Part shown: piece by piece, positions 53,959 to 64,000 of the stretch
Numbering within the stretch: position 1 is the first letter of the stretch
How the letters are laid out: each line of letters begins with the position of its first letter
Source of the DNA: a bacterium
GTDB lineage: Bacteria > UBA10199 > JADFYH01
DNA length: 64,000 nucleotides
NCBI GenBank assembly: GCA_046346885.1
Contig: JAXMHI010000010.1
Location: 56,632-120,631 of the forward strand
Direction of reading: 5' to 3'
Program-made: the position numbers and the translations under genes
Notes under the pieces: model-generated
The model's input: the letters and a program-made list of their open reading frames with translations, nothing else
Told to the model about the DNA's origin: nothing
The model's database searches: none

Positions 53959-54972
53959 TTACTCCCATATCCGAAACAAGCGTTCGAAAAACCAAAAGGC
54001 CGAAAGGGATCCGATGAAATAGGCGGGAAAGACCGTTTTCTTCAAAAACAGCGGCAAGGGGATGTTTCGCGCTAGCCTTTTCGCCGTCAAAAGAACTCCG
54101 ATAAAGAGTAATTGGCCGCATTCGATGCCCAGGTTGAAGGAAAAGAGCGACCAGGGAATCTCCCCCGCCGGCAATCCCACCTGCGCCAAGGCGCCGGCGA
54201 AACCCAATCCGTGCAATAGACCGAAAGAAGCGGCCATGCCCCAGGGATAGCGGCGGAAAAAATCGGCTTTTTTCTCGGGGGATCGGATGAGCTCCACCGC
54301 CAACACGAGAATGCTCAAGGCAATCAAGGCTTCCACCGCCGCGGGGGAAACGGCAACCCACCCCAAAGCGGCGAGCGAAAGGGTGACGCTGTGCCCCAGC
54401 GTGAAGGCGGTGATCGTCCCCAGCAACCTTCTCCCTCCCCCCACGAGCAGAACCAATCCCATCACGAACAAGAGGTGATCCCAACCGGTCAAGATGTGCT
54501 CAACGCCTAAGCGCCAATAATTTTGAAACACCGCCCCCGCGCGTTCGCGCTCCGGCACCACGAAGAAGGGTTGCTCGCTTCCCAACACCCGTTGATACTT
54601 TCGGCCGTCCGCCAAGACGACGCGAAGGATGACGTCGGCCTTGCTGCCGGAAATGCCCGAGACCCCCACCCGGCTTCCCACAAGCGGCGCATCACAAGAA
54701 ATTTTCCAGCGCTCCAAACGGGCGGAGTCGAAATTACGGCTCTCCGTTTCGCCCGTGGCGAGGCATCCCGAGGGAAGCTCAACGCGAAGGGCTTCCCCGG
54801 GTATTTTCATCAGCGGCGTTTTCCATAACACTTCGGCATTGCCCGGGGTTTTCTCGATGATTTCCAACAACGAAGGCGCGAGCGGATGCGCCTCGCCCCG
54901 ACTCCCCGCAAAAAGAAGGAGAAGCGGAAAAAATAAATACCATCGGCACCGTCTCTTCTTTCGCTCCCTCAT
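53959..54972 (-). CDS. HupE/UreJ family metal transporter-like membrane protein with N-terminal periplasmic domain
   Basis: GWDHLLFVMGLVLL, TAFTLGHSVTLSLA, GLLHGLGFAGAL and NLGIECGQL blocks typical of HupE/UreJ. Confidence 0.7.
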   Translation of the reverse strand: MRERKKRRCRWYLFFPLLLLFAGSRGEAHPLAPSLLEIIEKTPGNAEVLWKTPLMKIPGEALRVELPSGCLATGETESRNFDSARLERWKISCDAPLVGSRVGVSGISGSKADVILRVVLADGRKYQRVLGSEQPFFVVPERERAGAVFQNYWRLGVEHILTGWDHLLFVMGLVLLVGGGRRLLGTITAFTLGHSVTLSLAALGWVAVSPAAVEALIALSILVLAVELIRSPEKKADFFRRYPWGMAASFGLLHGLGFAGALAQVGLPAGEIPWSLFSFNLGIECGQLLFIGVLLTAKRLARNIPLPLFLKKTVFPAYFIGSLSAFWFFERLFRIWE

Positions 54973-55988
54973 GTGCCCCCTCTCAAGCTCGTTCGATTTT
55001 CCGCATTTTCATCGCTCTCCACTCGAATGACGTATTTAGAGCGCAATTGCGCGAGGGTTTCCTTCAAACGGGCCGCTTCTCTCTCCTGCAGGAGAATTCC
55101 CCGAATTTGGTTGGCCACCGCCTCCAAAGGCTCCACCCGGGGGGGAGTGATTTGCTCCACCCACACCAAGTGCCAACCATAGCTCGAAGCCACGGGCCCC
55201 GCCCATTGGCGGGGTTTCAGATGAGACACTTCTTGAGCGAAGGAAGGGCCGAACAAACGGGATAAGGCGGAAGAGGAAAAAGCGGAAAAGCGATTTCCCT
55301 CCATGAAGGAATCCCCCCCGCCGACCGCCTGCGCGAGCGTCGTTTCCCCTTTTTCCAACTTTCTCAAAAGCTCTTTCGCCTCCTCCTCCCCTTTCGAACC
55401 GCGCCGATCGCGGCTGAAATAAATCTGGGTAAAGCTGAGTTCCGGAGCTTTCGTAAAATTTTCGGGATGCCGATCGAGATACGTTTGAAGTTCTTCCCCC
55501 GTCACCCGCGCCGGTTGATTGGGCGTGGGAACCTTGCGGGCGATGAGGGCCATGGTGGCGATCAAGTGGCGCCTCACCACGCGGTCGCTGCGGTTCAGCC
55601 CCCACTCGAGAGCCTTCCGGTATAAGACGGCATCGGAGGCCTTGGGATCTTCGCCGACAAATTTCGCCAATTGAATGAGGCGCCGTTTAACGCTGGGGTT
55701 GTTCCGGTCCAAATGCAGGTTCAGCGCCTCCCGGTAAAGAACTTCGTCGTCGATGGCCCCTTCGATCGCCGCCGCCGTTTGCGCGGGGACGGGGGGCACG
55801 CCCGTTTGAGAGAAAATATCCTTTTTTAATTCCTCGATCTGCGCCCTTCCGATGACGATCTCTTCCGGGGGCGCGGGGTGCCGCCACCGCTCGAAGCGCT
55901 CCCACGCGCGATTCGCGCCGAACAAGGCGGCGCCCATCAACAAAAAATGAAGAAGAGGCGATTTAAGAATCTTCGAAAAGGGTTTCAT
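54969..55988 (-). CDS. PpiC-type (parvulin) peptidyl-prolyl isomerase, periplasmic
   Basis: N-terminal TM/signal sequence and a helical chaperone-like region. The rotamase core ends ..GPVASSYGWHLVWV. 4-nt overlap with the HupE-like gene. Confidence 0.65.
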   Translation of the reverse strand: MKPFSKILKSPLLHFLLMGAALFGANRAWERFERWRHPAPPEEIVIGRAQIEELKKDIFSQTGVPPVPAQTAAAIEGAIDDEVLYREALNLHLDRNNPSVKRRLIQLAKFVGEDPKASDAVLYRKALEWGLNRSDRVVRRHLIATMALIARKVPTPNQPARVTGEELQTYLDRHPENFTKAPELSFTQIYFSRDRRGSKGEEEAKELLRKLEKGETTLAQAVGGGDSFMEGNRFSAFSSSALSRLFGPSFAQEVSHLKPRQWAGPVASSYGWHLVWVEQITPPRVEPLEAVANQIRGILLQEREAARLKETLAQLRSKYVIRVESDENAENRTSLRGGT

Positions 55989-55991
55989 GGC

Positions 55992-58082
55992 TCATTCGGA
56001 CGGCACGAACCAGATGGGAGAGGTCCAGGCCCTCTCTTGAATGGTTCTGGAAATAAAGGGAGAATTCGTCTCGTTGATGCAGCAATTGTCGAAAGGCGTT
56101 TCGCCGCTTTGAATCTCGCCTCTCGCCAAGGCCTGCGCGTTGGCGGCGGCGGCCTTCGCATGGCAATCGCTTTCCCCCAAATAAGGATCTACGCCAGCCG
56201 CTTTGCAGGCGAAGGTGCTCCACCGGCAGGTCAGGGTTTTCGAGAACCCGGGCGTAATAAAAGGCGGGCGGGCGGGATCGAAATTCTTATCCTCCCAAAC
56301 CGCGCATAATTCGTTGAATCCCGCGCTTAAGTTGGGCTCGCAGGTGTCGGTGTTAAGCTCGTTACCGGCGCTCGTCGTATTTCCGATCACGTCCGCCACC
56401 TCTTCGTGGGTTTGTCCGGCGGCATCCACCCATCCCTTGATGATTTGAATCCGCTGCAGCGGCGTGCCGGGGAGCGCTTCGCTTCCCGCGTCTTTCAAGG
56501 CGGAAACCAAAAAGCGGGGAGCGTCTCCCCTTCTCGGAGACGGAAGATCGGACCCCATGGGAACCCCTTGCGCATAGCCCACCGCCACGCGGTTGGGCAG
56601 GGAGCAAAGCCGATCGTCGGGAATGCCGAAGTTCCAGCCCCCGAAGAAACGCACGATGGGCCGCGTGCCGCTGGTGCCGTAGGTCTCTTTGCGGCGCATG
56701 GCGGAGAAAATGGAATCGCGGGAATTTTCCTCCGCCCACACCACGGCCAGACCGCCGGGGTTTAAGTTGATGCTGTCGATGCGGCGGGCGAAGGAGCCGT
56801 CGTCGGTGCCCGTGCCCCAGCCGGTGTCTTCGCGGGTGTTTCCGGGGTGCCGTTGTGGCTGTCCGTGCTGCCGGCGATCCCGTACTTGAAGGGGTTGACC
56901 CCGCCGTATTTGGGGGCCAGAGCCATGCCGTCTTTCAGGGCGTTTCGGATCATGTTGCGGGAGGAAATTCGTCGATGGGCACCGACGGGGAGCTGGGGTC
57001 TAAAATCGCCTTGGGGGATTGCTCGAAGGTGCAGAGCTCATCCACCGTTTGCACTCCCTTCTGCGCCAAGCGGTCGAAGCGGCATTCGAACCCGCTTTGT
57101 GCTGGAGGATCTCCACCAAAGGCTCGAAGGCGGCGCGGGTCTTCGCTTCGTTCTGGTCCTTCGGGTCGGGAAACATGCGGCCCGCGGGATCTTCGGGGTA
57201 GAGCCGAAGGTTGGCGTTGTGGGGGATGGTGAGCACGTCGCAACCGTTGCCCGCGTTCAGGCATTGGTCGGTCAACATTTGCCACAACACCGGCGGAAAA
57301 GGCCCTCCCGTCTCGATGTTCGAAATGGGGGCTTTCGCCACGCGGTCGTTTCGAAAAATCACGTTGCGGTGCAGATTGTCGAATTGCGGTTGGGGGGTAT
57401 ACTCGTAGGCGACGAAGGTGGTGAAGTTGCACGCCGAACTGCGGTCGTAATTCGCTTCGGCCGCCTCCTGCACCGTTTGCCAAATCGAAACGGCGGCGCC
57501 GTCGCAATCCACCCCCGGCGCGGCGCAAAACGGCAGGTGACCGGCGCCGTCGGGCCGCAAAGTGGGATTGAGGGCCCAAATTCCCGCGACCGTCAAAGGA
57601 TCCACCTCTCCCCCGGGGCCGGGATTGGGTTGTTCGGTCAACATCTGTTGGCAGGCGAGCGAATTGCTCCCCGGCGTGCCCGCGGCGGAACGGGTGCAAA
57701 TCTGCATTTCCCCGAAAAGCTCGGCGTGGTCGGTGACCGCGGTAAAATCCAAGGGCTTGTTGATTTGGGCGACCCGGCTTTGGGGTTCTCCCCCCACGGC
57801 CAAGGGCCCCGGCAAGGGCACCGCTTCCCCTTTGGCGAAACGATACGCCGCGAAGGGATCGTTGCGGGTGGAGAGCACGTACGCATCGAAAGAAAAAGAA
57901 GTGTGCACGTGGGTTTCGCCGAAGAAGGGCTGACGCAGGGGCTGGTAATTGCTGCAGGCCTCCCGCTGCTCGGTAACGGTGAAAGGCGGACTGGACGAAT
58001 GGTTACAGGCCGAAACGAAAAAAGGCGAAACCAGAAAAAAGAATAGAAACCTCCCCCTTACCCCTTTCCCCCGTCTTCTCAC
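55992..58082 (-). pseudogene. DUF3604 domain lipoprotein, split by three 1-nt frame shifts
   Basis: Likely GTG start at 58082 (VRRRGKGVRGRFLFFFLVSPFFVSAC). FFGETHVHTSFSFDAY is the family motif. Collinear continuation needs shifts near 57086-57090 (HKAGS|ECRFDRL), 56965-56970 (PIDE|..RNMIRNALKDG) and 56842-56848 (HNGTP|GNTREDTGWG..GGLAVVWAEENSRDSIF). Confidence 0.7.
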
Positions 58083-58171
58083 GCTCCCCCCTTTTTTTGG
58101 TGTGAAGATAGATTTTAAGGAGTGAGCACGGGGGCGGTAAAGCAAAATTTCATCCGAGTGCGGCCATCCGC

Positions 58172-58582
58172 TCACTCGTCTTCCGGAAAGGCGAACCCCA
58201 AGCCGCACCCCGGGCAAGTCTCTTCTTGAAGATTCCGCGGCGCCCCGCAGGCGGGGCAATGCCCCAAATCGTCCAGGGCCGCCATCTGCTCGGGCGTTGT
58301 TCCCGGAACTTGTTCTAAATACACTTCGCGATCGGCGGCTTGAGCGCGGGCGAAATCTTCTTCTCTCACGTACAGCTCGCACTTAACCCGTTGGCCGCGA
58401 TAACGGGTCGAGATGAGCCCGCCTTCTTCGGGAATTTCTTCGATTTGAAAGGGAATGTTTTGTTCCGTCAACTTCCGGGCGAGAATTTCGATCCAGTCCG
58501 TATCTTGAACGCAAAGGAGCTTAAGATTTTGGAGGTTATCATCCATACCGTTTATTCTACCTTCATTTCCATTGTCGTCCAT
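58172..58582 (-). CDS. Hypothetical protein, DUF2007-like N-domain plus C-terminal zinc ribbon
   Basis: 136-aa ORF. CPACG...CPGCG. The N-terminal fold assignment is only a guess. An alternative ATG lies at 58546. Confidence 0.4.
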   Translation of the reverse strand: MDDNGNEGRINGMDDNLQNLKLLCVQDTDWIEILARKLTEQNIPFQIEEIPEEGGLISTRYRGQRVKCELYVREEDFARAQAADREVYLEQVPGTTPEQMAALDDLGHCPACGAPRNLQEETCPGCGLGFAFPEDE

Positions 58583-58615
58583 GTTTACTTTCCCTTCCTT
58601 CGGGTTAGGCTTCCC

Positions 58616-59221
58616 CTAATCCTTACAAACCTCTTTTCCATGCCGATCGAAGGTGGCGAGTGGCTTCACTTCACCGTCTTTACCGACATGATAAAGCCCA
58701 TACGACTCTTCGATATCCGAACAACCGAAGGGCCGGACGCGGGGCAAATGCACGGCGAAGCCGTCCGGCACTTTCGCGACCTGGGCCGAGAGCTTAGCCC
58801 CTTCTCCTCTGGCCACTTCTTGCGTCACCGCCACCCACGAAACGGCGGCCTCTTCGTCTTTTACGGGAGCCGCGATCTTTTGAAGCTGATCGAAACGGTC
58901 CAGGCGCTCGGTTTTTCCGTCACGATGAATTTCCAACCACGTGCTGTAATTGCATTTACCCCCTTCTTGTTTCAAATAAACCGCCGAAGTTTTTTCGTAA
59001 TGGGCGCACTCGCCTTTGATTTCGGGTTTTAAGGACGAAGGAAAACCTTGAAGGGACGACATCGAAAGGGTTTTCCAAGAAAGGTTTAAATAGGTTTGCG
59101 CATCGCCCGAATTTTTCCAGGCATATTTTTTCAAACTCTGGGGAAAGCCCTCTTGTGCATGAGAAGACGGGATAAAAACAAAAAGGAAAAAGATAAAAAA
59201 GCAGGCACGGTAAATTCGCAT
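58616..59221 (-). CDS. Secreted hypothetical protein
   Basis: 201-aa ORF with signal peptide ending SSHA. Confidence 0.5.
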   Translation of the reverse strand: MRIYRACFFIFFLFVFIPSSHAQEGFPQSLKKYAWKNSGDAQTYLNLSWKTLSMSSLQGFPSSLKPEIKGECAHYEKTSAVYLKQEGGKCNYSTWLEIHRDGKTERLDRFDQLQKIAAPVKDEEAAVSWVAVTQEVARGEGAKLSAQVAKVPDGFAVHLPRVRPFGCSDIEESYGLYHVGKDGEVKPLATFDRHGKEVCKD

Positions 59222-59251
59222 AACGTTTAGGCGACCTCCAATTTAAATCCC

Positions 59252-59533
59252 TTAGTTTTTAAACTCTCCGCTTTCTTCTTCCTTTTCCTCGCCTTCCCCA
59301 AAACGCGACGAAGGCGGGGAGGAAAGAGCCAGAAAGAAAATAGGCCCCAAGAGCGGAAGCAAGAGAATGATCGACCACAGCAGTTTTGCGGAAATTTTAT
59401 TTTTGCGGACGAACCAGAGATGAATCAAACAAAAGAAACTAAGGCTTAAAACTAAAAACCAAAACAGCGGGGAACCGGGGATATAGGGGATCCATTCTGG
59501 ATATCTTTGGCTAGAGCCGTAAATGGAGTTCAT
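59252..59533 (-). CDS. Small membrane protein (PLDc_N-like)
   Basis: 93-aa ORF with two TM helices. KLLWSIILLLPLLGPIFFL resembles the PLD N-terminal membrane motif. Confidence 0.4.
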   Translation of the reverse strand: MNSIYGSSQRYPEWIPYIPGSPLFWFLVLSLSFFCLIHLWFVRKNKISAKLLWSIILLLPLLGPIFFLALSSPPSSRFGEGEEKEEESGEFKN

Positions 59534-59635
59534 ACCTTTAAGAGAAATGCTTTTCGCCGATCCCGCCCCCTAGCGGATCGACTTGGTTTAAATGGCGCAT
59601 TTGGCGAGGGAACCCGTGTCGAAAAAAGGGAAACC

Positions 59636-60010
59636 TCATTTCAAACGCGTCAGCGTTTCCGTCCCCAAATCGTTGGGATTCTTGGCCACGAACCAGGTGC
59701 CCTTCATGTTGCCATCCGGCTGCACGGTATAAGTCACGGTCCCCACGTTTTGGGATTGATTGCCCCATTCCACGGCGAAGGTGTTGCCGTTCAACTTACC
59801 GACTCCATCATAGACGCTGCCCACCTGCCAATGCACCCGATAGACATCCCCGCTCTTCACGATGGTCGCGGTGCCGCGATACGAGCCGGCATTCTTGGGA
59901 TTCGTCCCGAGCACCCCGTAAGTGCCCTCAATATTCGCACTTTGCGCGGCGGCCGGAGCGGCCCAAATGATCACGATCGCGAGGCAACAGAGAGATAGCC
60001 ATTTTCTCAT
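59636..60010 (-). CDS. Secreted hypothetical protein
   Basis: ATG at 60010 (MRKWLSLCCLAIVIIWAAPAAA) with AAGGAG upstream. The tracked longer start is unlikely. Confidence 0.5.
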   Translation of the reverse strand: MRKWLSLCCLAIVIIWAAPAAAQSANIEGTYGVLGTNPKNAGSYRGTATIVKSGDVYRVHWQVGSVYDGVGKLNGNTFAVEWGNQSQNVGTVTYTVQPDGNMKGTWFVAKNPNDLGTETLTRLK

Positions 60011-60057
60011 TTTTTCTCCTTTTTTTAAGAATTCAATCCTCTTCAAATTCATATTTC

Positions 60058-60402
60058 TCATTTACTAGGTTGGTTTGCGCATTCTTGAGGCGGCGGAACA
60101 TTTCTCTCCGCCAAATACTGCTTAAAATCCTTCAACCCTTTCACGCAATCCACGGGAGGCGTCGCCACCGACAATTGGCACATGAGCATCGCACTCGACT
60201 CCTTCTTTCCCGCCGCCTCGCAGCATCGCGCCAAATTCTCGCAGCCGGGGCCTTTCGGGGGCCAAACGTTTTTACCGTCGGAAAGCACAACGGTGTTTCC
60301 GTTGGAGGAAGGGGCGATGGTGGTTTCGGCGTGGGGTTGGGGGAGGAAGGAAAGGAAGGTGAAGAATAAAAAAATAAGGGAGAGGTGTTTGTCGCATTTC
60401 AT
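60058..60402 (-). CDS. Secreted Cys-rich hypothetical protein
   Basis: ATG at 60402 (MKCDKHLSLIFLFFTFLSFLPQPHA). Six further Cys residues. Confidence 0.5.
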   Translation of the reverse strand: MKCDKHLSLIFLFFTFLSFLPQPHAETTIAPSSNGNTVVLSDGKNVWPPKGPGCENLARCCEAAGKKESSAMLMCQLSVATPPVDCVKGLKDFKQYLAERNVPPPQECANQPSK

Positions 60403-60430
60403 GGATAAGTCCTTTATGCGCAAAATGTAG

Positions 60431-60877
60431 TTATTTTCGAAAAAGAACAAAATGAGGAAGCGATTTTAACTGCGTATATCTAAACATTTTATAATCGGCT
60501 CTTACGGCTTTTTTAGAAAGTTGATACTTCTTTAAAGTTGTTTTTGGAATGAACGGATAAAACCGAATTTCTTGTCGTTTTTTAGACTTTTCCAGCCAAC
60601 AAAAATTTACAATTAGCGGTGGAACAATAAATCCCGATTTCAAAACCTTCTCGATTACAGTCCATCCGGCACCGAGAATCTGGTTACTGGGTTTTCGATT
60701 CACCGACTTTACTTGAGTTCTAAAAGAACAGCCAGAACATTGCAGATCGTATAATGGGTAGTTTTTCGGCAAACAAAGTAGTTTCTTTAAACAGTTAGGA
60801 CAATTTATAAGCCTGACAACTTCGCGTTCTCCCTTACCACCGGTAATTTGGTTCAATGTTAGGGCTGCCTTTTTCAA
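60431..60877 (-). CDS. DpnI/Dam-replacing-family-like PD-(D/E)xK nuclease domain with Cys4 zinc site; catalytic-domain-only, with Q in place of the E of ExK
   Basis: INCPNCLKKLLCLPKNYPLYDLQCSGCSFRTQVKS aligns by eye to DpnI YCPNCGNNPLNHFENNRPVADFYCNHCSEEFELKS. Later GAGWTVIEKV aligns with DGAYATMMKRV. The protein is 148 aa versus about 254 aa for DpnI, so there is no winged-helix domain. TTG start overlaps the hsdM stop (TTGA). One hand-counted line is 21/60 GC. Confidence 0.45.
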   Translation of the reverse strand: MKKAALTLNQITGGKGEREVVRLINCPNCLKKLLCLPKNYPLYDLQCSGCSFRTQVKSVNRKPSNQILGAGWTVIEKVLKSGFIVPPLIVNFCWLEKSKKRQEIRFYPFIPKTTLKKYQLSKKAVRADYKMFRYTQLKSLPHFVLFRK

Positions 60878-62331
60878 CGCTTCAGATCCTCCGCAATCGT
60901 CGCGAACTGCTCCAACGCCGCCTCTAAATCCTCCATAATTTCTCGGGCAATGATTTCCGGGGCAGGCAGATTGGCGGATTCTTCGAGGCTTTCGTCTTTA
61001 AGCCAGAAGATATCGAGGTTCACTTTGTCGCGCTTGACGAGTTCCTCATAGGCGAAGCCCTTGAAGCGTTCGCTCTCCTTGCGAGAGTGCCGGTTCTTGA
61101 AGTTGTAGCAGGCGACAAAGTCATCCAGATCCGATCGTTTGAGGGGATTTTCCTTCAGGGTGAAGTGCATGTTGGTGCGGAGGTCGTAGATCCAGAGCTT
61201 TTGCGTCCAGGGGGTTTCCCTCGCCTCTTTGCGGTCGAAGAAGAGGACGTTCGCCTTCACCCCTTGGGCGTAGAAGAGGCCCGTGGGCAGGCGCAGGAGG
61301 GTGTGCACATCGCATTCGTGGAGGAGTTTCCGGCGGATCGTCTCCCCCGCCCCGCCTTCGAAGAGCACGTTGTCGGGCACCACCACCGCGGCGCGGCCGT
61401 TGATCTTGAGGAGGGATTTGACGTGTTGGAGGAAGTTGAGTTGCTTATTGGAAGTGGTCGCCCAAAAGTCTTGCCGTTCGTAGGTCTCTTTCTCTTTTGA
61501 GACCTTTCCCTCTTCCCCCACGATCGTGATACTGCTCTTCTTCCCGAAGGGAGGATTCGTCAGCACGATCTCGAAACGCTCGCTCGGTTCCGCGGCGAGG
61601 GAATCAGCCACCACTATCGGTTCAGATTCTTGGTTCCCGATTCCGTGAAGCAGCATATTCATGGCGCAAAGCCGTGCCACCCCTTGCACCAGCTCGAACC
61701 CCTTGAAGGTGTTCTCCTTCAGCTTCTTCCTTTCCGCCTTCGACATGTGGGGGTAATGGCCCACCATGTAGTCATGGGCGGCCAGGATGAACCCTCCCGT
61801 GCCGCAGGCGGGATCGGAGATGCCCTCTCCCGGCCGCGGTTGGATTACCTCCACGATCGCCTGAATGAGCGGCCGCGGCGTGAAGTATTGCCCTGCCCCC
61901 GATTTGGTATCCTGCGCGTTCTTCTCCAAGAGCCCTTCGTAGGCCTCCCCTTTCACGTCGGCGGCCATGTTCGACCAATTCTCTTTGTCGATCAGATCCA
62001 CGATCAAGCGCCTCAGCTTCGCGGGGTCTTGAATCTTATTCTGCGCCTTGTTGAAGATCAGCCCGAGCAGCCCCTTCTCATTGCCCAAGCTTTCCAAGGT
62101 ATGGCGATAATGATCGAAAAGATCATCGCCGTCCTTCTTCAAAAGCGAAGCCCAATTGAACTTTGCCGGGATGGGGCTCGGGTGATTGTAAGGGGCCTTG
62201 GATCTTTCATCGGCCATCTTGAGGAAGAGGAGGTAGGTGAGTTGTTCGACGTAATCGCCGTAGGAGAGGCCGTCGTCGCGGAGGGTGTTGCAGTAGTTCC
62301 AGAGTTTTTGAGTAATATGTTGGGCGTTCAT
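60874..62331 (-). CDS. hsdM: Type I restriction-modification N6-adenine DNA methyltransferase subunit HsdM (EcoKI-like)
   Basis: MNAQHITQKLWNYCNTLRDDGLSYGDYVEQLTYLLFLKM parallels the EcoKI HsdM N-terminus. Motif I DPACGTGGF and motif IV NPPFG are present. I prefer ATG 62331 over the tracked TTG at 62373. One hand-counted line is 36/60 GC. Confidence 0.88.
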   Translation of the reverse strand: MNAQHITQKLWNYCNTLRDDGLSYGDYVEQLTYLLFLKMADERSKAPYNHPSPIPAKFNWASLLKKDGDDLFDHYRHTLESLGNEKGLLGLIFNKAQNKIQDPAKLRRLIVDLIDKENWSNMAADVKGEAYEGLLEKNAQDTKSGAGQYFTPRPLIQAIVEVIQPRPGEGISDPACGTGGFILAAHDYMVGHYPHMSKAERKKLKENTFKGFELVQGVARLCAMNMLLHGIGNQESEPIVVADSLAAEPSERFEIVLTNPPFGKKSSITIVGEEGKVSKEKETYERQDFWATTSNKQLNFLQHVKSLLKINGRAAVVVPDNVLFEGGAGETIRRKLLHECDVHTLLRLPTGLFYAQGVKANVLFFDRKEARETPWTQKLWIYDLRTNMHFTLKENPLKRSDLDDFVACYNFKNRHSRKESERFKGFAYEELVKRDKVNLDIFWLKDESLEESANLPAPEIIAREIMEDLEAALEQFATIAEDLKR

Positions 62332-62344
62332 TCTATCAGAAACC

Positions 62345-63673
62345 CTATTGTTTCCCTTTTCCATAGTATGCAATTATGAGGTTCCTTGTTGCGGATAAGA
62401 TGCGGTTTTCATTTTTGGAAAGGGAAGCTTCGACTAGCTGTTTAATTGTTTTATCCTGCAAAATTATATCGCTCGGAAATACGTCAGCAGCAAACGTTAA
62501 CCATTGCTCACGAGGCTTGCTATCCATTAACTTCTCAAGAATCCTTGTTTCTCCAATCAAAATCTTGTCTAAGTAATAACTCCAGCGTTCTGCACTTTGT
62601 TTTTTTAGAAGACGATCAGCAATTGGACGAGCACTCCAACTTGTTCCATAAGAATTTCCGAGCCTGACGCAAAGCAGAGCAGTGAAGCAAGGGCCGATAG
62701 CAGGGGCAGGGATAACAGTCCCCAGTTTTTCAAGATTTAATGTAGGTGTCTCCTCATGATAGAAATTGTTCATGCCTTCGTGAGCATGAATAATAGCTTC
62801 GGCAGCTTTAGTGAAAGTTTGAGAGCGCAAATTTTCGGGTACGTAGTCAAATCCACGAACCTTAAGTAATGCTTGCTTGAGACCGACAGTTTGCATTTGG
62901 AGCCCATCGGCATAAACTTGTGCATAAGTAAACCCCACTTGCCATCTCTCTGGCTCTCGCGTTGTAGGCCACAGTAGAGGAAGTAATAAATTTAAATTGG
63001 ATAGACAGTGCTCAAGTTTTGCCCCTGTATGGGATCGAATGCCAGATAGCAATACAGCAATAGCTAAACGACGGAAGAAGTATGGCGAAGCGACTAAGGT
63101 GTCGCAACGTGAGTCCCCTTGCTGAAATGTCTCGGCTTCTAAATCCTTGCGAAAATCGGCAAATCGTTTTGCGACCTGAATGCTCGGTTTTGCAAGTACG
63201 CTTTTTACACAACTCAATAGAACGTTAACGGCTTCGTTTACTTCCATAGAATCATCGCCTTCGCCAGGATCGCGCTGCGCAAAGTGTGCGACAAGCTCTT
63301 GAGAATGACGCAAACGCATTGCTTCCGTCCGCGAAACTATTCCGAGTTCTTCCGCTAACTTAATGGCTTCCTTTTCGGTAATCGCATCTAAAACATTATC
63401 ATTTTCGGATATGTCAGTTCGCCCAAGCAATTCAGCTAAAAAGGTTACACCTAATGTTCCCAGTTCCCTTTTTAGGGCAGCCATTGCCCGACCCCAAACA
63501 AATGATGTAGCCATTTCGTAACTGCCGTTCTTGTACGCAGTTACTACTTGAGTTTTTTCACGCGCTGAAAGTTGCTTGGCGAATTCTGCAATCTCGCCAG
63601 GTTGAGAGAGATTTGCGGGAACAAGGCTTTGGGTAGGCTGATCCCATAATACAATCTCGTTTGTCTTACTCAT
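62345..63673 (-). CDS. Hypothetical 442-aa protein, apparently all-alpha, no recognised family
   Basis: Long uninterrupted ORF. ATG overlaps the upstream stop (ATGA) and its stop lies 13 nt before the hsdM ATG. No TM helix or signal peptide. One hand-counted line is 27/60 GC. Confidence 0.6.
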   Translation of the reverse strand: MSKTNEIVLWDQPTQSLVPANLSQPGEIAEFAKQLSAREKTQVVTAYKNGSYEMATSFVWGRAMAALKRELGTLGVTFLAELLGRTDISENDNVLDAITEKEAIKLAEELGIVSRTEAMRLRHSQELVAHFAQRDPGEGDDSMEVNEAVNVLLSCVKSVLAKPSIQVAKRFADFRKDLEAETFQQGDSRCDTLVASPYFFRRLAIAVLLSGIRSHTGAKLEHCLSNLNLLLPLLWPTTREPERWQVGFTYAQVYADGLQMQTVGLKQALLKVRGFDYVPENLRSQTFTKAAEAIIHAHEGMNNFYHEETPTLNLEKLGTVIPAPAIGPCFTALLCVRLGNSYGTSWSARPIADRLLKKQSAERWSYYLDKILIGETRILEKLMDSKPREQWLTFAADVFPSDIILQDKTIKQLVEASLSKNENRILSATRNLIIAYYGKGKQ

Positions 63674-64000
63674 AGTTTTCTCCGAAGGTCATTCTCGCCA
63701 TCTTGTGATTGAAAAAAAGCTGCTTTAAGACCTTTGCCTACTTTACCACATAGTGCTTCGTATGCTCTTCGCCGAGCACCACCAGCTATATTTGATCCCT
63801 TTAGTTTGATAAAAGCATTGTAGGCTATTGCATTTGCTCTCGTATCGAAAACTACAATTCCGTCACAACGAAACATTCCACAAATTACATTTTCAAGCGC
63901 ATAAAGGTGGGGTATGGCACTCGGTTCACGGAGCACAGCATTAACAACATTACTCAAATTAATTGGTGGGTTAATGTTGGTACAATCGTTTAAAAATGCA
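63670..64000 (-). CDS. C-terminal 110 codons of a protein with a diadenylate-cyclase (DAC/DisA_N)-like domain; N-terminus lies beyond the window
   Basis: The frame is open to the window edge (my translation upstream of the tracked TTG: AFLNDCTNINPPIN...). FRCDGIVVFDTRANAIAYNAFIKLKG..IAGGARRRAYEALCG....KAAFFQSQDGE aligns by eye to the DAC pattern HDGAVI..(I)AA..LPLS..LGTRHRAA.G....DA..IVVSEETG. Confidence 0.4.
   Translation of the reverse strand, partial: AFLNDCTNINPPINLSNVVNAVLREPSAIPHLYALENVICGMFRCDGIVVFDTRANAIAYNAFIKLKGSNIAGGARRRAYEALCGKVGKGLKAAFFQSQDGENDLRRKL

What the first reader, a model, noticed from the sequence alone, without database searches (positions are those of the whole stretch)
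60431..64000. Candidate novel defence/conflict operon: DAC-like protein, 442-aa unknown, solitary HsdM, truncated DpnI-like nuclease
Four minus-strand genes are packed with an ATGA overlap (63670-63673), a 13-nt gap (62332-62344) and a TTGA overlap (60874-60877). This implies one transcript and translational coupling. The methyltransferase is a clear type I HsdM. However, no HsdS and no HsdR lie downstream, and none lies in the 1.7 kb visible upstream. In their place are (i) a Cys4 PD-(D/E)xK domain related to the methyl-directed enzyme DpnI, (ii) a large helical protein with no recognisable family, and (iii) the C-terminus of a protein whose last ~80 residues align to the diadenylate-cyclase fold. 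A nucleotide-second-messenger-type domain, a modification enzyme and a nuclease in one operon fits the logic of sensor-signal-effector defence systems. I am not aware of a described system with this composition.
Basis: inference. Interest (0 to 1): 0.8.

Follow-up and report, generated by a model that had tools for sequence, protein, structure and literature searches.

The report
DAC-like two-gene cassette inside type I R-M
The four genes are not one new system: they are an ordinary type I restriction-modification operon carrying an undescribed, widely conserved two-gene cassette (a diadenylate-cyclase-like protein plus a helical partner) that looks like a candidate anti-phage module.

Summary
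The four tightly packed minus-strand genes are real. The cut-off upstream protein has a diadenylate-cyclase (DAC) fold, and the 442-aa protein has no known family.

The "solitary HsdM, one four-gene system" reading does not hold. An identical contig that runs past the window end shows yhcG-hsdS-A(337 aa)-B(442 aa)-hsdM. A syntenic relative shows hsdR-...-yhcG-hsdS-A-B-hsdM.

A and B form an autonomous pair with overlapping stop and start codons:
- A sits directly upstream of B in 77 of 81 loci, across many phyla.
- Only about 10% of loci are embedded in type I R-M or placed beside BREX.
- Neighbours elsewhere often include other defence genes.
- No third gene is conserved. A subset adds a SLATT or other membrane protein.
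- The B domain also occurs fused to caspase, metallophosphoesterase and kinase domains.

A and B match no model in Pfam, NCBIfam or PADLOC. They fit neither of the two DAC defence classes in the papers I read.

The "truncated DpnI" is a full-length member of a conserved ~143-aa mini-DpnI family. Two of three sampled relatives also sit at the 3' end of type I loci.

Codon-position GC (GC3) marks hsdS-A-B and mini-DpnI as foreign inserts.

Defence function and cyclase activity are inferred, not shown.

The parts
63670..64000 (-). 3' end of gene A: the last 109 of 337 codons, which is the second half of the DAC-like domain with the DGI, GGARRR and SQDG motifs. The rest lies beyond the window and is recovered from identical contig L001 (2110-3123).
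   Evidence: P0121 is 100% identical. AF2 model pLDDT 88.8. Foldseek top 50 hits are all DAC enzymes. Profile hits in PDB are only DAC proteins. Invariant residues.
62345..63673 (-). Gene B: a 442-aa all-helical protein of an undescribed family and the obligate partner of A. Its start overlaps A's stop (ATGA).
   Evidence: At least 797 homologues, none named or with a Pfam domain. 600 representatives at 50% identity. AF2 pLDDT 85. No significant PDB or BFVD structural match. A lies immediately upstream in 77 of 81 loci.
60874..62331 (-). hsdM, the type I R-M methyltransferase subunit. It looks intact, with the GTGGF and NPPF motifs, and has host-like GC3 of 0.76.
   Evidence: GC3.
60431..60877 (-). 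Mini-DpnI-family gene (148 aa): Cys4 zinc site plus a PD...QxK core and no winged-helix domain. TTG start overlaps the hsdM stop. GC is low (0.365; GC3 0.32).
   Evidence: Alignment to DpnI 4esj. Family of at least 485 clusters of ~143 aa. Invariant D44, Q55, K57 and cysteines. Contexts. GC.
62332..62344 (-). 13-nt junction between the stop of B and the hsdM start. In related loci, B is followed directly by a full or relic hsdM 5' end.
   Evidence: tblastn of HsdM against related loci.

Best explanation
The locus is a composite. Its backbone is a type I R-M operon, transcribed as (hsdR, inferred)-yhcG-hsdS-A-B-hsdM-miniDpnI. A horizontally acquired low-GC block carrying hsdS and the two-gene cassette A-B sits just upstream of hsdM.

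A-B is an autonomous module with conserved stop/start overlap.
- A has an N-terminal alpha/beta domain of unknown family and a highly divergent diadenylate-cyclase-fold domain. That domain keeps the acidic and arginine positions of the DAC active site.
- B is a helical protein. Homologues of B are fused to caspase, metallophosphoesterase or kinase domains.

Proposed mechanism (inferred):
1. B is the sensing or regulatory scaffold.
2. A is the enzymatic output. It either makes a nucleotide signal or consumes ATP.
3. Some relatives add a SLATT or other membrane protein downstream. That protein would be the signal-gated effector.
4. In the two-gene form seen here, the killing or arrest step is unidentified.

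The cassette would act alongside the type I system, not through HsdM. The mini-DpnI gene is a separate add-on found at the 3' end of type I loci.
For: Shown:
- Contig L001 is identical to the window end and reads yhcG-hsdS-A-B-hsdM.
- Relative L089 reads hsdR-lactamaseB-yhcG-hsdS-A-B-hsdM. Roseibacillus, L010 and L012 read hsdR-hsdS-A-B-...-hsdM.
- L087 places A-B right after BREX brxL.
- A lies directly upstream of B in 77 of 81 loci, and no third gene is conserved. Stop/start overlaps of 4 or 8 nt occur in every locus with gene calls.
- GC3: hsdM 0.76 and yhcG 0.67, against hsdS 0.42, A 0.30, B 0.37 and mini-DpnI 0.32.
- DAC fold. Invariant D274, G275, G301, G302, A303, R304, R306, S326, D328 and G329. 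This parallels the invariant D, G, G, R of immune PanS DACs (PMC13640721).
- Neighbours include DRT RT-SLATT, CBASS patatin, pAgo with SIR2, Dsr2, TIR, Schlafen and integrases.
- SLATT genes lie directly downstream of B in Pantoea, Craterilacuibacter, Colwellia and Marinobacter.
- The B domain is fused to Peptidase_C14, Metallophos and Pkinase domains.
- 'Guilt by embedding' has precedent: Payne 2024 and TgvAB.
Against: - There is no experimental evidence for defence or for any enzymatic activity.
- Pfam's DAC model does not reach significance for this protein. The middle His of RHR is not conserved, and DGA is DG(I/V).
- The two-gene form, including this window, has no recognisable effector.
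- Many neighbours are housekeeping genes, and defence enrichment was not measured against a background.
- Solo B-like genes without A exist on Bacillus and Rhodococcus plasmids. B may therefore be the functional core rather than a sensor.
- hsdR was not seen for this contig itself.
Confidence: 0.6

Rival explanations
1. The DAC-like protein, the 442-aa protein, a solitary HsdM and a truncated DpnI-like nuclease form one integrated sensor-signal-effector system. HsdM and the nuclease work without HsdS or HsdR.
For: The four genes are tightly packed, with overlaps, on one strand. No hsdS or hsdR lies inside the window.
Against: - hsdS lies directly upstream of A on the identical contig L001.
- hsdR is present in syntenic L089 and in L003, L010 and L012.
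- A-B lacks any nearby HsdM-like gene in about 90% of loci.
- The mini-DpnI gene was absent from the other A-B loci fetched by then.
- Mini-DpnI is a full-length, independent family.
- The GC3 mosaic points to separate origins.
Confidence: 0.04
2. A-B is a defence module, but A's DAC-like domain is catalytically dead. It acts as a nucleotide- or DNA-binding sensor or regulator. B, or A's N-terminal domain, is the actual effector.
For: - The RHR histidine is lost and DGA is altered, and the Pfam DAC model scores below threshold.
- A is basic, with pI 9.3.
- Solo B-like proteins exist without A.
- B has many invariant polar residues.
Against: - The metal and phosphate-binding positions (D274, R304, R306, D328) are invariant across phyla.
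- Experimentally active immune DACs are also divergent and keep only part of these motifs (PMC13640721).
- SLATT partners, which a cited paper describes as nucleotide-associated effectors and which I recall as such, occur downstream in some loci.
- B has no recognisable catalytic fold.
Confidence: 0.2
3. A-B is not an immune system. It is an accessory stress-signalling, regulatory or addiction module that hitchhikes in variable regions, and type I R-M loci are merely recombination landing pads.
For: - Neighbours are heterogeneous and include housekeeping genes.
- Relic hsdM 5' fragments show that type I loci collect many kinds of cassette by recombination.
- There was no hit in PADLOC.
- There is no functional data.
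Against: - A-B is repeatedly embedded in or abuts type I R-M and BREX loci.
- It lies next to CBASS, pAgo, Dsr2, DRT and TIR genes.
- It has low GC relative to the host.
- The B domain is fused to caspase, kinase and phosphoesterase domains, as in conflict systems.
- It associates with SLATT genes.
- Its distribution across phyla is patchy.
Confidence: 0.15
4. Guard logic as in Panoptes and Panoptoo. A constitutively makes a decoy nucleotide that keeps an effector (SLATT where present, otherwise B) switched off. Phage sponges or nucleases that remove the signal release the effector.
For: Minimal DACs work this way with 2TM effectors. Membrane or SLATT partners occur downstream of some A-B pairs.
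Against: - A is 337 aa with an extra conserved N-terminal domain.
- A always has the large partner B, which Panoptoo lacks.
- Most A-B loci have no membrane effector.
- No toxicity data exist.
Confidence: 0.1

Closest known systems
Panoptoo / PanDA (minimal DAC PanS plus a 2TM-beta effector PanE)
   Same: A DAC-fold protein sits in a small operon found in defence contexts. The conserved core is D-G ... G-x-R ... S. Some A-B loci are followed by a small membrane protein.
   Different: - PanS is ~150 aa and contains only the DAC domain, which Pfam DisA_N recognises.
- A is 337 aa, has an extra N-terminal domain, and scores below Pfam's threshold.
- The obligate partner of A is a 442-aa soluble helical protein, not a 2TM-beta barrel.
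- No membrane effector is present in the window.
CBASS-DAC / DS-2 (CdaG-type ~550-575-aa DAC with DACNG and DACNH domains beside a CD-NTase and an effector)
   Same: It is a defence-associated DAC-domain protein that carries extra N-terminal domains.
   Different: A has no DACNG or DACNH hits. No CD-NTase or patatin gene lies in the operon. Size and partner both differ.
Type I R-M-embedded defence cassettes (TgvAB in Vibrio cholerae VPI-2, PrrC, Rlo genes, PADLOC PDC candidates)
   Same: A two-gene cassette of unknown function interrupts a type I R-M operon on the same strand and also occurs elsewhere on its own. Another embedded gene, yhcG (PDC-S02), sits next to it.
   Different: There is no homology to GmrSD, DUF262, PrrC or any PADLOC v2 model. 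The domain content differs: a DAC-like protein plus a helical protein.
Canonical diadenylate cyclases (DisA, CdaA, CdaM)
   Same: The fold matches (Foldseek probability 1.0, TM-score against the target 0.45-0.52). Equivalents of the hGALI, DG, GxRxR and S-acidic-G motifs are present.
   Different: Sequence identity is about 12-17%. The His of RHR is not conserved and DGA is DG(I/V). There are no TM, HhH or other known regulatory domains. Many hosts are Proteobacteria.
DpnI (type IIM methyl-directed endonuclease)
   Same: The 148-aa protein shares the Cys4 zinc site and the PD...xK catalytic-domain scaffold, and passes the Pfam DpnI threshold.
   Different: It has no C-terminal winged-helix domain. 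The catalytic Glu is replaced by an invariant Gln. It belongs to a distinct ~143-aa family.

Membership tests
Diadenylate cyclase (DAC / DisA_N, PF02457): protein A | DAC alpha/beta fold | tested here: met
   The AF2 model has pLDDT 88.8. All of Foldseek's top 50 PDB hits are DisA, CdaA, CdaM or DacA, with E about 8e-4 to 7e-3 and probability 0.99-1.0.
Diadenylate cyclase (DAC / DisA_N, PF02457): protein A | Significant match to the family's sequence profile | tested here: not met
   P0121 has no Pfam hit at E<=1. Only 3 of 30 relatives hit DAC, best E 0.0023. Reverse profile searches hit only DAC proteins, but weakly: 2fb5 at E 0.019 and 0.007, DisA at 0.14.
Diadenylate cyclase (DAC / DisA_N, PF02457): protein A | DGA and RHR active-site motifs | tested here: inconclusive
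   D274, G275, R304 and R306 are invariant. The third DGA position is I, V or L, and the RHR His is variable. S326, D328 and G329 are invariant.
Diadenylate cyclase (DAC / DisA_N, PF02457): protein A | Synthesis of c-di-AMP or a related cyclic dinucleotide | not testable with these tools
   This needs biochemistry.
Type I restriction-modification system | HsdM methyltransferase subunit | tested here: met
   N6_Mtase 2e-71, HsdM_N 3e-13 and PADLOC MTase_I 2.6e-201 over the full length.
Type I restriction-modification system | HsdS specificity subunit in the same locus | tested here: met
   L001 772-2100 encodes a 442-aa protein with Methylase_S 5e-18 and PADLOC Specificity_I 4e-56. It lies one gene upstream of A on the identical contig.
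Type I restriction-modification system | HsdR restriction subunit in the same locus | tested here: inconclusive
   None is in the window. L001 ends inside yhcG. hsdR is present upstream in syntenic L089 and in L003, L010 and L012.
DpnI family (PF06044): 148-aa protein | Match to the DpnI catalytic-domain profile above the curated cut-off | tested here: met
   33.9 bits against a cut-off of 26.7, E 3e-8. PADLOC mREase_II 1.4e-6.
DpnI family (PF06044): 148-aa protein | PD-(D/E)xK catalytic triad | tested here: not met
   The Asp and Lys are conserved, but the Glu position is an invariant Gln (TQVK against ELK) in all 24 aligned family members.
DpnI family (PF06044): 148-aa protein | C-terminal winged-helix methyl-DNA-binding domain | tested here: not met
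   The protein ends at profile position 151 of 183. The family is ~143 aa against 254-257 aa for DpnI.
Panoptoo / PanDA | Minimal ~150-aa DAC paired with a 2TM-beta effector | tested here: not met
   A is 337 aa with two domains. Its partner B is soluble and helical, with a maximum 19-residue Kyte-Doolittle hydropathy of 1.66. No membrane gene lies in the window.
CBASS-DAC (DS-2) | DACNG and DACNH domains plus an adjacent CD-NTase and effector | tested here: not met
   A has no such Pfam or PADLOC hits. The operon content differs.
Any system in PADLOC-DB v2.0.0, including the PDC embedded candidates | HMM match of A or B | tested here: not met
   A and B have no hit at E<=1. The neighbouring yhcG does match PDC-S02.

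The most novel reading that the evidence does not exclude
A-B is a new anti-phage system. A previously unrecognised helical sensor module (B) is also deployed fused to caspase, kinase and phosphoesterase effectors. Here it controls a third, highly divergent class of immune DAC-fold enzyme (A). That enzyme makes a nucleotide signal, possibly a non-canonical one. The signal gates SLATT pores where these are present and an unknown target elsewhere.
Probability: 0.3. Interest if true: 0.8.

Novelty: new variant of a known kind. Interest (0 to 1): 0.62.

Why it matters
DAC enzymes were shown to act in phage defence only in 2025-2026, and the papers I read describe two classes: CBASS-DAC/DS-2 and Panoptoo/PanDA.

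A third class would extend that repertoire. It is invisible to Pfam, has a new partner protein, and is spread over many phyla.

It would also give a handle on a new modular domain (B) that pairs with caspase, kinase and phosphoesterase domains.

The locus also illustrates how type I R-M operons collect cassettes. In related loci, relic hsdM 5' fragments follow embedded genes, which points to recombination at the hsdM 5' end.

Finally, it flags a conserved mini-DpnI family linked to type I loci, for which I found no described function in what I read.

Tried and rejected
- Internal duplication in A. The N- and C-terminal halves have a similar order of secondary-structure elements, but hhalign gives probability 0.2%, so this is rejected at the sequence level.
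- Fold of A's N-terminal domain. The profile found nothing in PDB.
- B as a membrane or pore protein. Only marginal hydrophobic segments exist, and they sit in the well-packed core of the model.
- B as a HEPN nuclease. A solo Bacillus homologue has an RNxxxxxH-like stretch, but the Arg is not conserved in the B family. Not supported.
- Structural relatives of B. PDB gave only weak ARM/HEAT-type matches (best E 0.04), and BFVD gave nothing.
- Sequence-profile relatives of B in PDB: none.
- Phage-encoded A or B: none among 50,697 phage records.
- A-B in E. coli complete genomes: none, using the Pantoea DNA as query.
- A alternative partner replacing A in L030 and in Streptomyces. Neither partner shows similarity to A.
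- Recovering the 121.8-kb source contig to see hsdR. Only the 5.4-kb Logan contig is indexed.
- The Galperin 2023 catalogue of DAC architectures could not be read.
- Internal promoters or terminators: nothing above chance.

Full report
**Observation**

The four minus-strand ORFs and their junctions are exactly as described.
- Mini-DpnI-like gene: 60431-60877, TTG start overlapping the hsdM stop (TTGA).
- hsdM: 60874-62331.
- A 13-nt gap follows, at 62332-62344.
- The 442-aa gene, called B here: 62345-63673.
- An ATGA overlap leads into a frame that stays open to the window edge. This gene is called A here.

HsdM is unambiguous: N6_Mtase 2e-71, HsdM_N, and PADLOC MTase_I 2.6e-201. The 148-aa protein passes Pfam's DpnI cut-off. 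B and the A fragment hit nothing in Pfam, PADLOC or NCBIfam.

**What lies beyond the window**

A Logan contig, L001, is identical to the window end and continues upstream. In the direction of transcription it reads yhcG (DUF1016 PDDEXK nuclease; PADLOC PDC-S02), hsdS (442 aa), A (337 aa, full length), B, then hsdM. HsdM is therefore not solitary.

No hsdR or hsdS occurs anywhere in the 64-kb window, and L001 ends inside yhcG. The closest long relative, L089 (B 69% identical), reads hsdR-lactamaseB-yhcG-hsdS-A-B-hsdM-(NucS-like). Roseibacillus, L010 and L012 read hsdR-hsdS-A-B-...-hsdM. I infer, but did not see, an hsdR upstream of yhcG in this contig.

**A-B is an autonomous two-gene module**

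B has at least 797 homologues in 90%-identity clusters, all unnamed. It has 600 representatives at 50% identity among 1.84 billion proteins.

A scan of one genome per species returned 80 loci. They span Acidobacteriota, Ignavibacteriota, Pseudomonadota, Verrucomicrobiota, Planctomycetota, Bacteroidota, Cyanobacteria, Bacillota, Actinomycetota, Armatimonadota and others.
- In 77 of 81 distinct loci, an A homologue lies immediately upstream on the same strand.
- No third gene family is conserved.
- The exceptions are an insertion between A and B (L018), a different upstream gene (L030), and contig edges.
- Every locus with gene calls shows a 4- or 8-nt overlap between A and B.

Only about one locus in ten carries an HsdM-like gene within 10 kb. 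The mini-DpnI gene is in none of the other A-B loci fetched by then. The four-gene combination therefore does not recur, but the two-gene core does, very consistently.

**Mosaic origin**

GC3 separates the genes into two groups (profile).
- Host-like: hsdM 0.76 and yhcG 0.67.
- Foreign-looking: hsdS 0.42, A 0.30, B 0.37 and mini-DpnI 0.32.

In related loci, B is followed directly by a relic hsdM 5' fragment, then other embedded genes, each again followed by such a fragment, before the intact hsdM (L003, L010, L012, L086). This suggests that cassettes enter by recombination in the conserved hsdM 5' end. That step is an inference.

**Protein A**

The AlphaFold2 model is confident (pLDDT 88.8, pTM 0.82) and shows two alpha/beta domains.

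Evidence for a DAC fold in the C-terminal domain:
- All 50 top Foldseek hits in PDB are DisA, CdaA, CdaM or DacA (probability 0.99-1.0, TM-score against the target 0.45-0.52).
- Family profiles hit only DAC proteins in PDB: 2fb5 at E 0.019 and 0.007, and DisA at 0.14.
- Pfam DAC is hit weakly by 3 of 30 relatives, but not by this protein.
- The HMMER alignments pair DGI with DGA and GGARRRA with GTRHRAA.
- Invariant residues are D274, G275, G301, G302, A303, R304, R306, S326, D328 and G329. The His of RHR is variable.

This resembles immune PanS DACs, in which D, G, G and R are the fully conserved residues (PMC13640721).

The N-terminal domain (invariant E45, E46, W100, G114; K90 nearly invariant) has no detectable relatives. 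It is not detectably a duplicate of the DAC domain.

**Protein B**

The model is all-helical (pLDDT 85) and soluble. It has no significant match in PDB or BFVD. The best matches are weak ARM/HEAT-like solenoids at E 0.04.

Three observations bear on its role.
1. In the exhaustive search, full-length B domains form the C-terminal part of longer proteins. The N-termini of these are Peptidase_C14 caspases (four representatives), a calcineurin-like metallophosphoesterase, or Ser/Thr kinases.
2. Distant solo B-like genes occur on Bacillus and Rhodococcus plasmids without A, and on a Streptomyces plasmid behind a partner unrelated to A.
3. In a proteobacterial subset, a small membrane protein follows B directly. 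In Pantoea, Craterilacuibacter, Colwellia and Marinobacter, NCBI names it "SLATT domain-containing protein". Vibrio has a different 204-aa protein with hydrophobic segments.

**Genomic company**

- A-B follows brxL at the end of a BREX locus.
- It sits beside a patatin-plus-nucleotidyltransferase pair of the CBASS type on an Agrobacterium plasmid.
- It sits beside a type II R-M system on a Vibrio plasmid.
- Across about 75 loci, the two nearest genes on each side include type I R-M parts, RT-SLATT, patatin, pAgo with SIR2, Dsr2, TIR, Schlafen, PIN, Fic, integrases and IS200. Many housekeeping genes are also present.

I could not compute an enrichment against a background.

A and B are absent from 50,697 phage records. 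A DNA search with the Pantoea A-B region found nothing in complete E. coli genomes.

**Mechanism**

Shown: a conserved pair with overlapping stop and start codons, a DAC fold with the key acidic and arginine positions kept, modular fusions of B, and repeated embedding in defence loci.

Inferred:
- B is the sensing or regulatory scaffold. It occupies the position that, in the fusion proteins, follows a variable enzymatic head.
- A is that enzymatic head, encoded as a separate polypeptide. It makes a nucleotide signal or consumes ATP.
- SLATT or other membrane proteins, where present, are the gated effectors.
- In the two-gene form seen in this window, the effector step is unknown.

Alternatives are a dead DAC acting as a sensor, Panoptes-like decoy logic, and a non-immune accessory module. 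I give the defence reading about 0.6 and active nucleotide synthesis about 0.4.

**Mini-DpnI**

The 148-aa protein is not truncated. It belongs to a family of at least 485 clusters of ~143-aa proteins, with mean identity 70% among 24 aligned members. Named members include many Patescibacteria and one Woesearchaeota archaeon.

The family keeps the Cys4 site and has invariant D44, Q55 and K57. The Glu of DpnI's ExK is a conserved Gln, and there is no winged-helix domain.

Two of three sampled relatives also sit at the 3' end of type I R-M operons: HsdM-x-miniDpnI and HsdS-HsdR-YgjP-miniDpnI. I treat it as a separate add-on of unknown activity linked to type I loci.

**Comparison with what is known**

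The papers I read describe two DAC classes in defence.
- CBASS-DAC/DS-2 (CdaG): about 550-575 aa, with DACNG and DACNH domains.
- PanS: about 150 aa, paired with 2TM-beta effectors (Panoptoo/PanDA).

A-B fits neither. PADLOC v2, which contains the "guilt-by-embedding" PDC candidates, has no model that matches A or B. The closest organisational precedent is TgvAB, a two-gene system embedded in the Vibrio cholerae type I R-M operon.

**Verdict**

- The four-gene interpretation is rejected in favour of a type I R-M operon with an embedded cassette.
- The DAC-like and unknown-family calls are upheld.
- The cassette is a candidate new variant of nucleotide-signalling-type defence. It is worth experimental follow-up, but its function is unproven.

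Noticed in passing
L086 2520-6556; L003 11358-11513; L010 11341-11700; L012 11311-11676: Relic hsdM 5' fragments (HsdM residues about 1-50 to 1-110) follow B directly, and in L086 also follow each further embedded gene ahead of the intact hsdM. This looks like a footprint of repeated cassette insertion by recombination at the hsdM 5' end.
   Followed up: partly
window 60431-60877; L093 5001-5435; L095 5001-5432; L097 5001-5435: A highly conserved ~143-aa mini-DpnI family (Cys4 plus D...QxK, no winged helix). Named members include many Patescibacteria (CPR) and one Woesearchaeota (DPANN) archaeon. Two of three sampled relatives, and the window copy, sit at the 3' end of type I R-M operons.
   Followed up: partly
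P0351, P0368, P0369, P0371, P0360, P0381, P0446: Full-length B-like domains are fused to N-terminal caspase (Peptidase_C14), calcineurin-like phosphoesterase or Ser/Thr kinase domains. B therefore behaves as a modular domain typical of conflict systems.
   Followed up: partly
L068 11392-11913; L078 11402-12037; L083 8892-9491; L002 11377-12099; L026 and L032 11317-11931; L092 3225-3839: In a gamma/beta-proteobacterial subset, a SLATT-domain gene follows B on the same strand within about 85 nt. In Vibrio, a distinct 204-aa protein with hydrophobic segments does so.
   Followed up: partly
L001 2-775 (just beyond the window end): A YhcG/DUF1016 PDDEXK nuclease gene (PADLOC candidate PDC-S02) lies upstream of hsdS in the same operon. 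This type I locus therefore carries at least two embedded cassettes plus the 3' mini-DpnI gene.
   Followed up: partly
window 54000-64000: There is a sharp compositional mosaic. Flanking DNA is 56-65% GC and hsdM is 56% (GC3 0.76). The A-B cassette is 40-44% and the mini-DpnI gene is 36.5%.
   Followed up: yes
L090 5797-7215; L098 4911-6239; L091 5791-7236: Distant B-like genes (22-24% identity; hhalign probability 99.3 for the Bacillus one) lie on Bacillus, Rhodococcus and Streptomyces plasmids without any A partner. The Streptomyces copy is preceded by an unrelated 484-aa protein.
   Followed up: partly
L087 1-11323: A-B, preceded by a 64-aa ORF, sits immediately after brxL at the end of a BREX-type locus (PglX ... 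PglZ, BrxL). An integrase and recombinases follow.
   Followed up: no
window 58172-60450: Several small minus-strand ORFs with signal-peptide-like or hydrophobic N-termini (130-201 aa) lie directly downstream of the operon. They are not part of the R-M locus.
   Followed up: no
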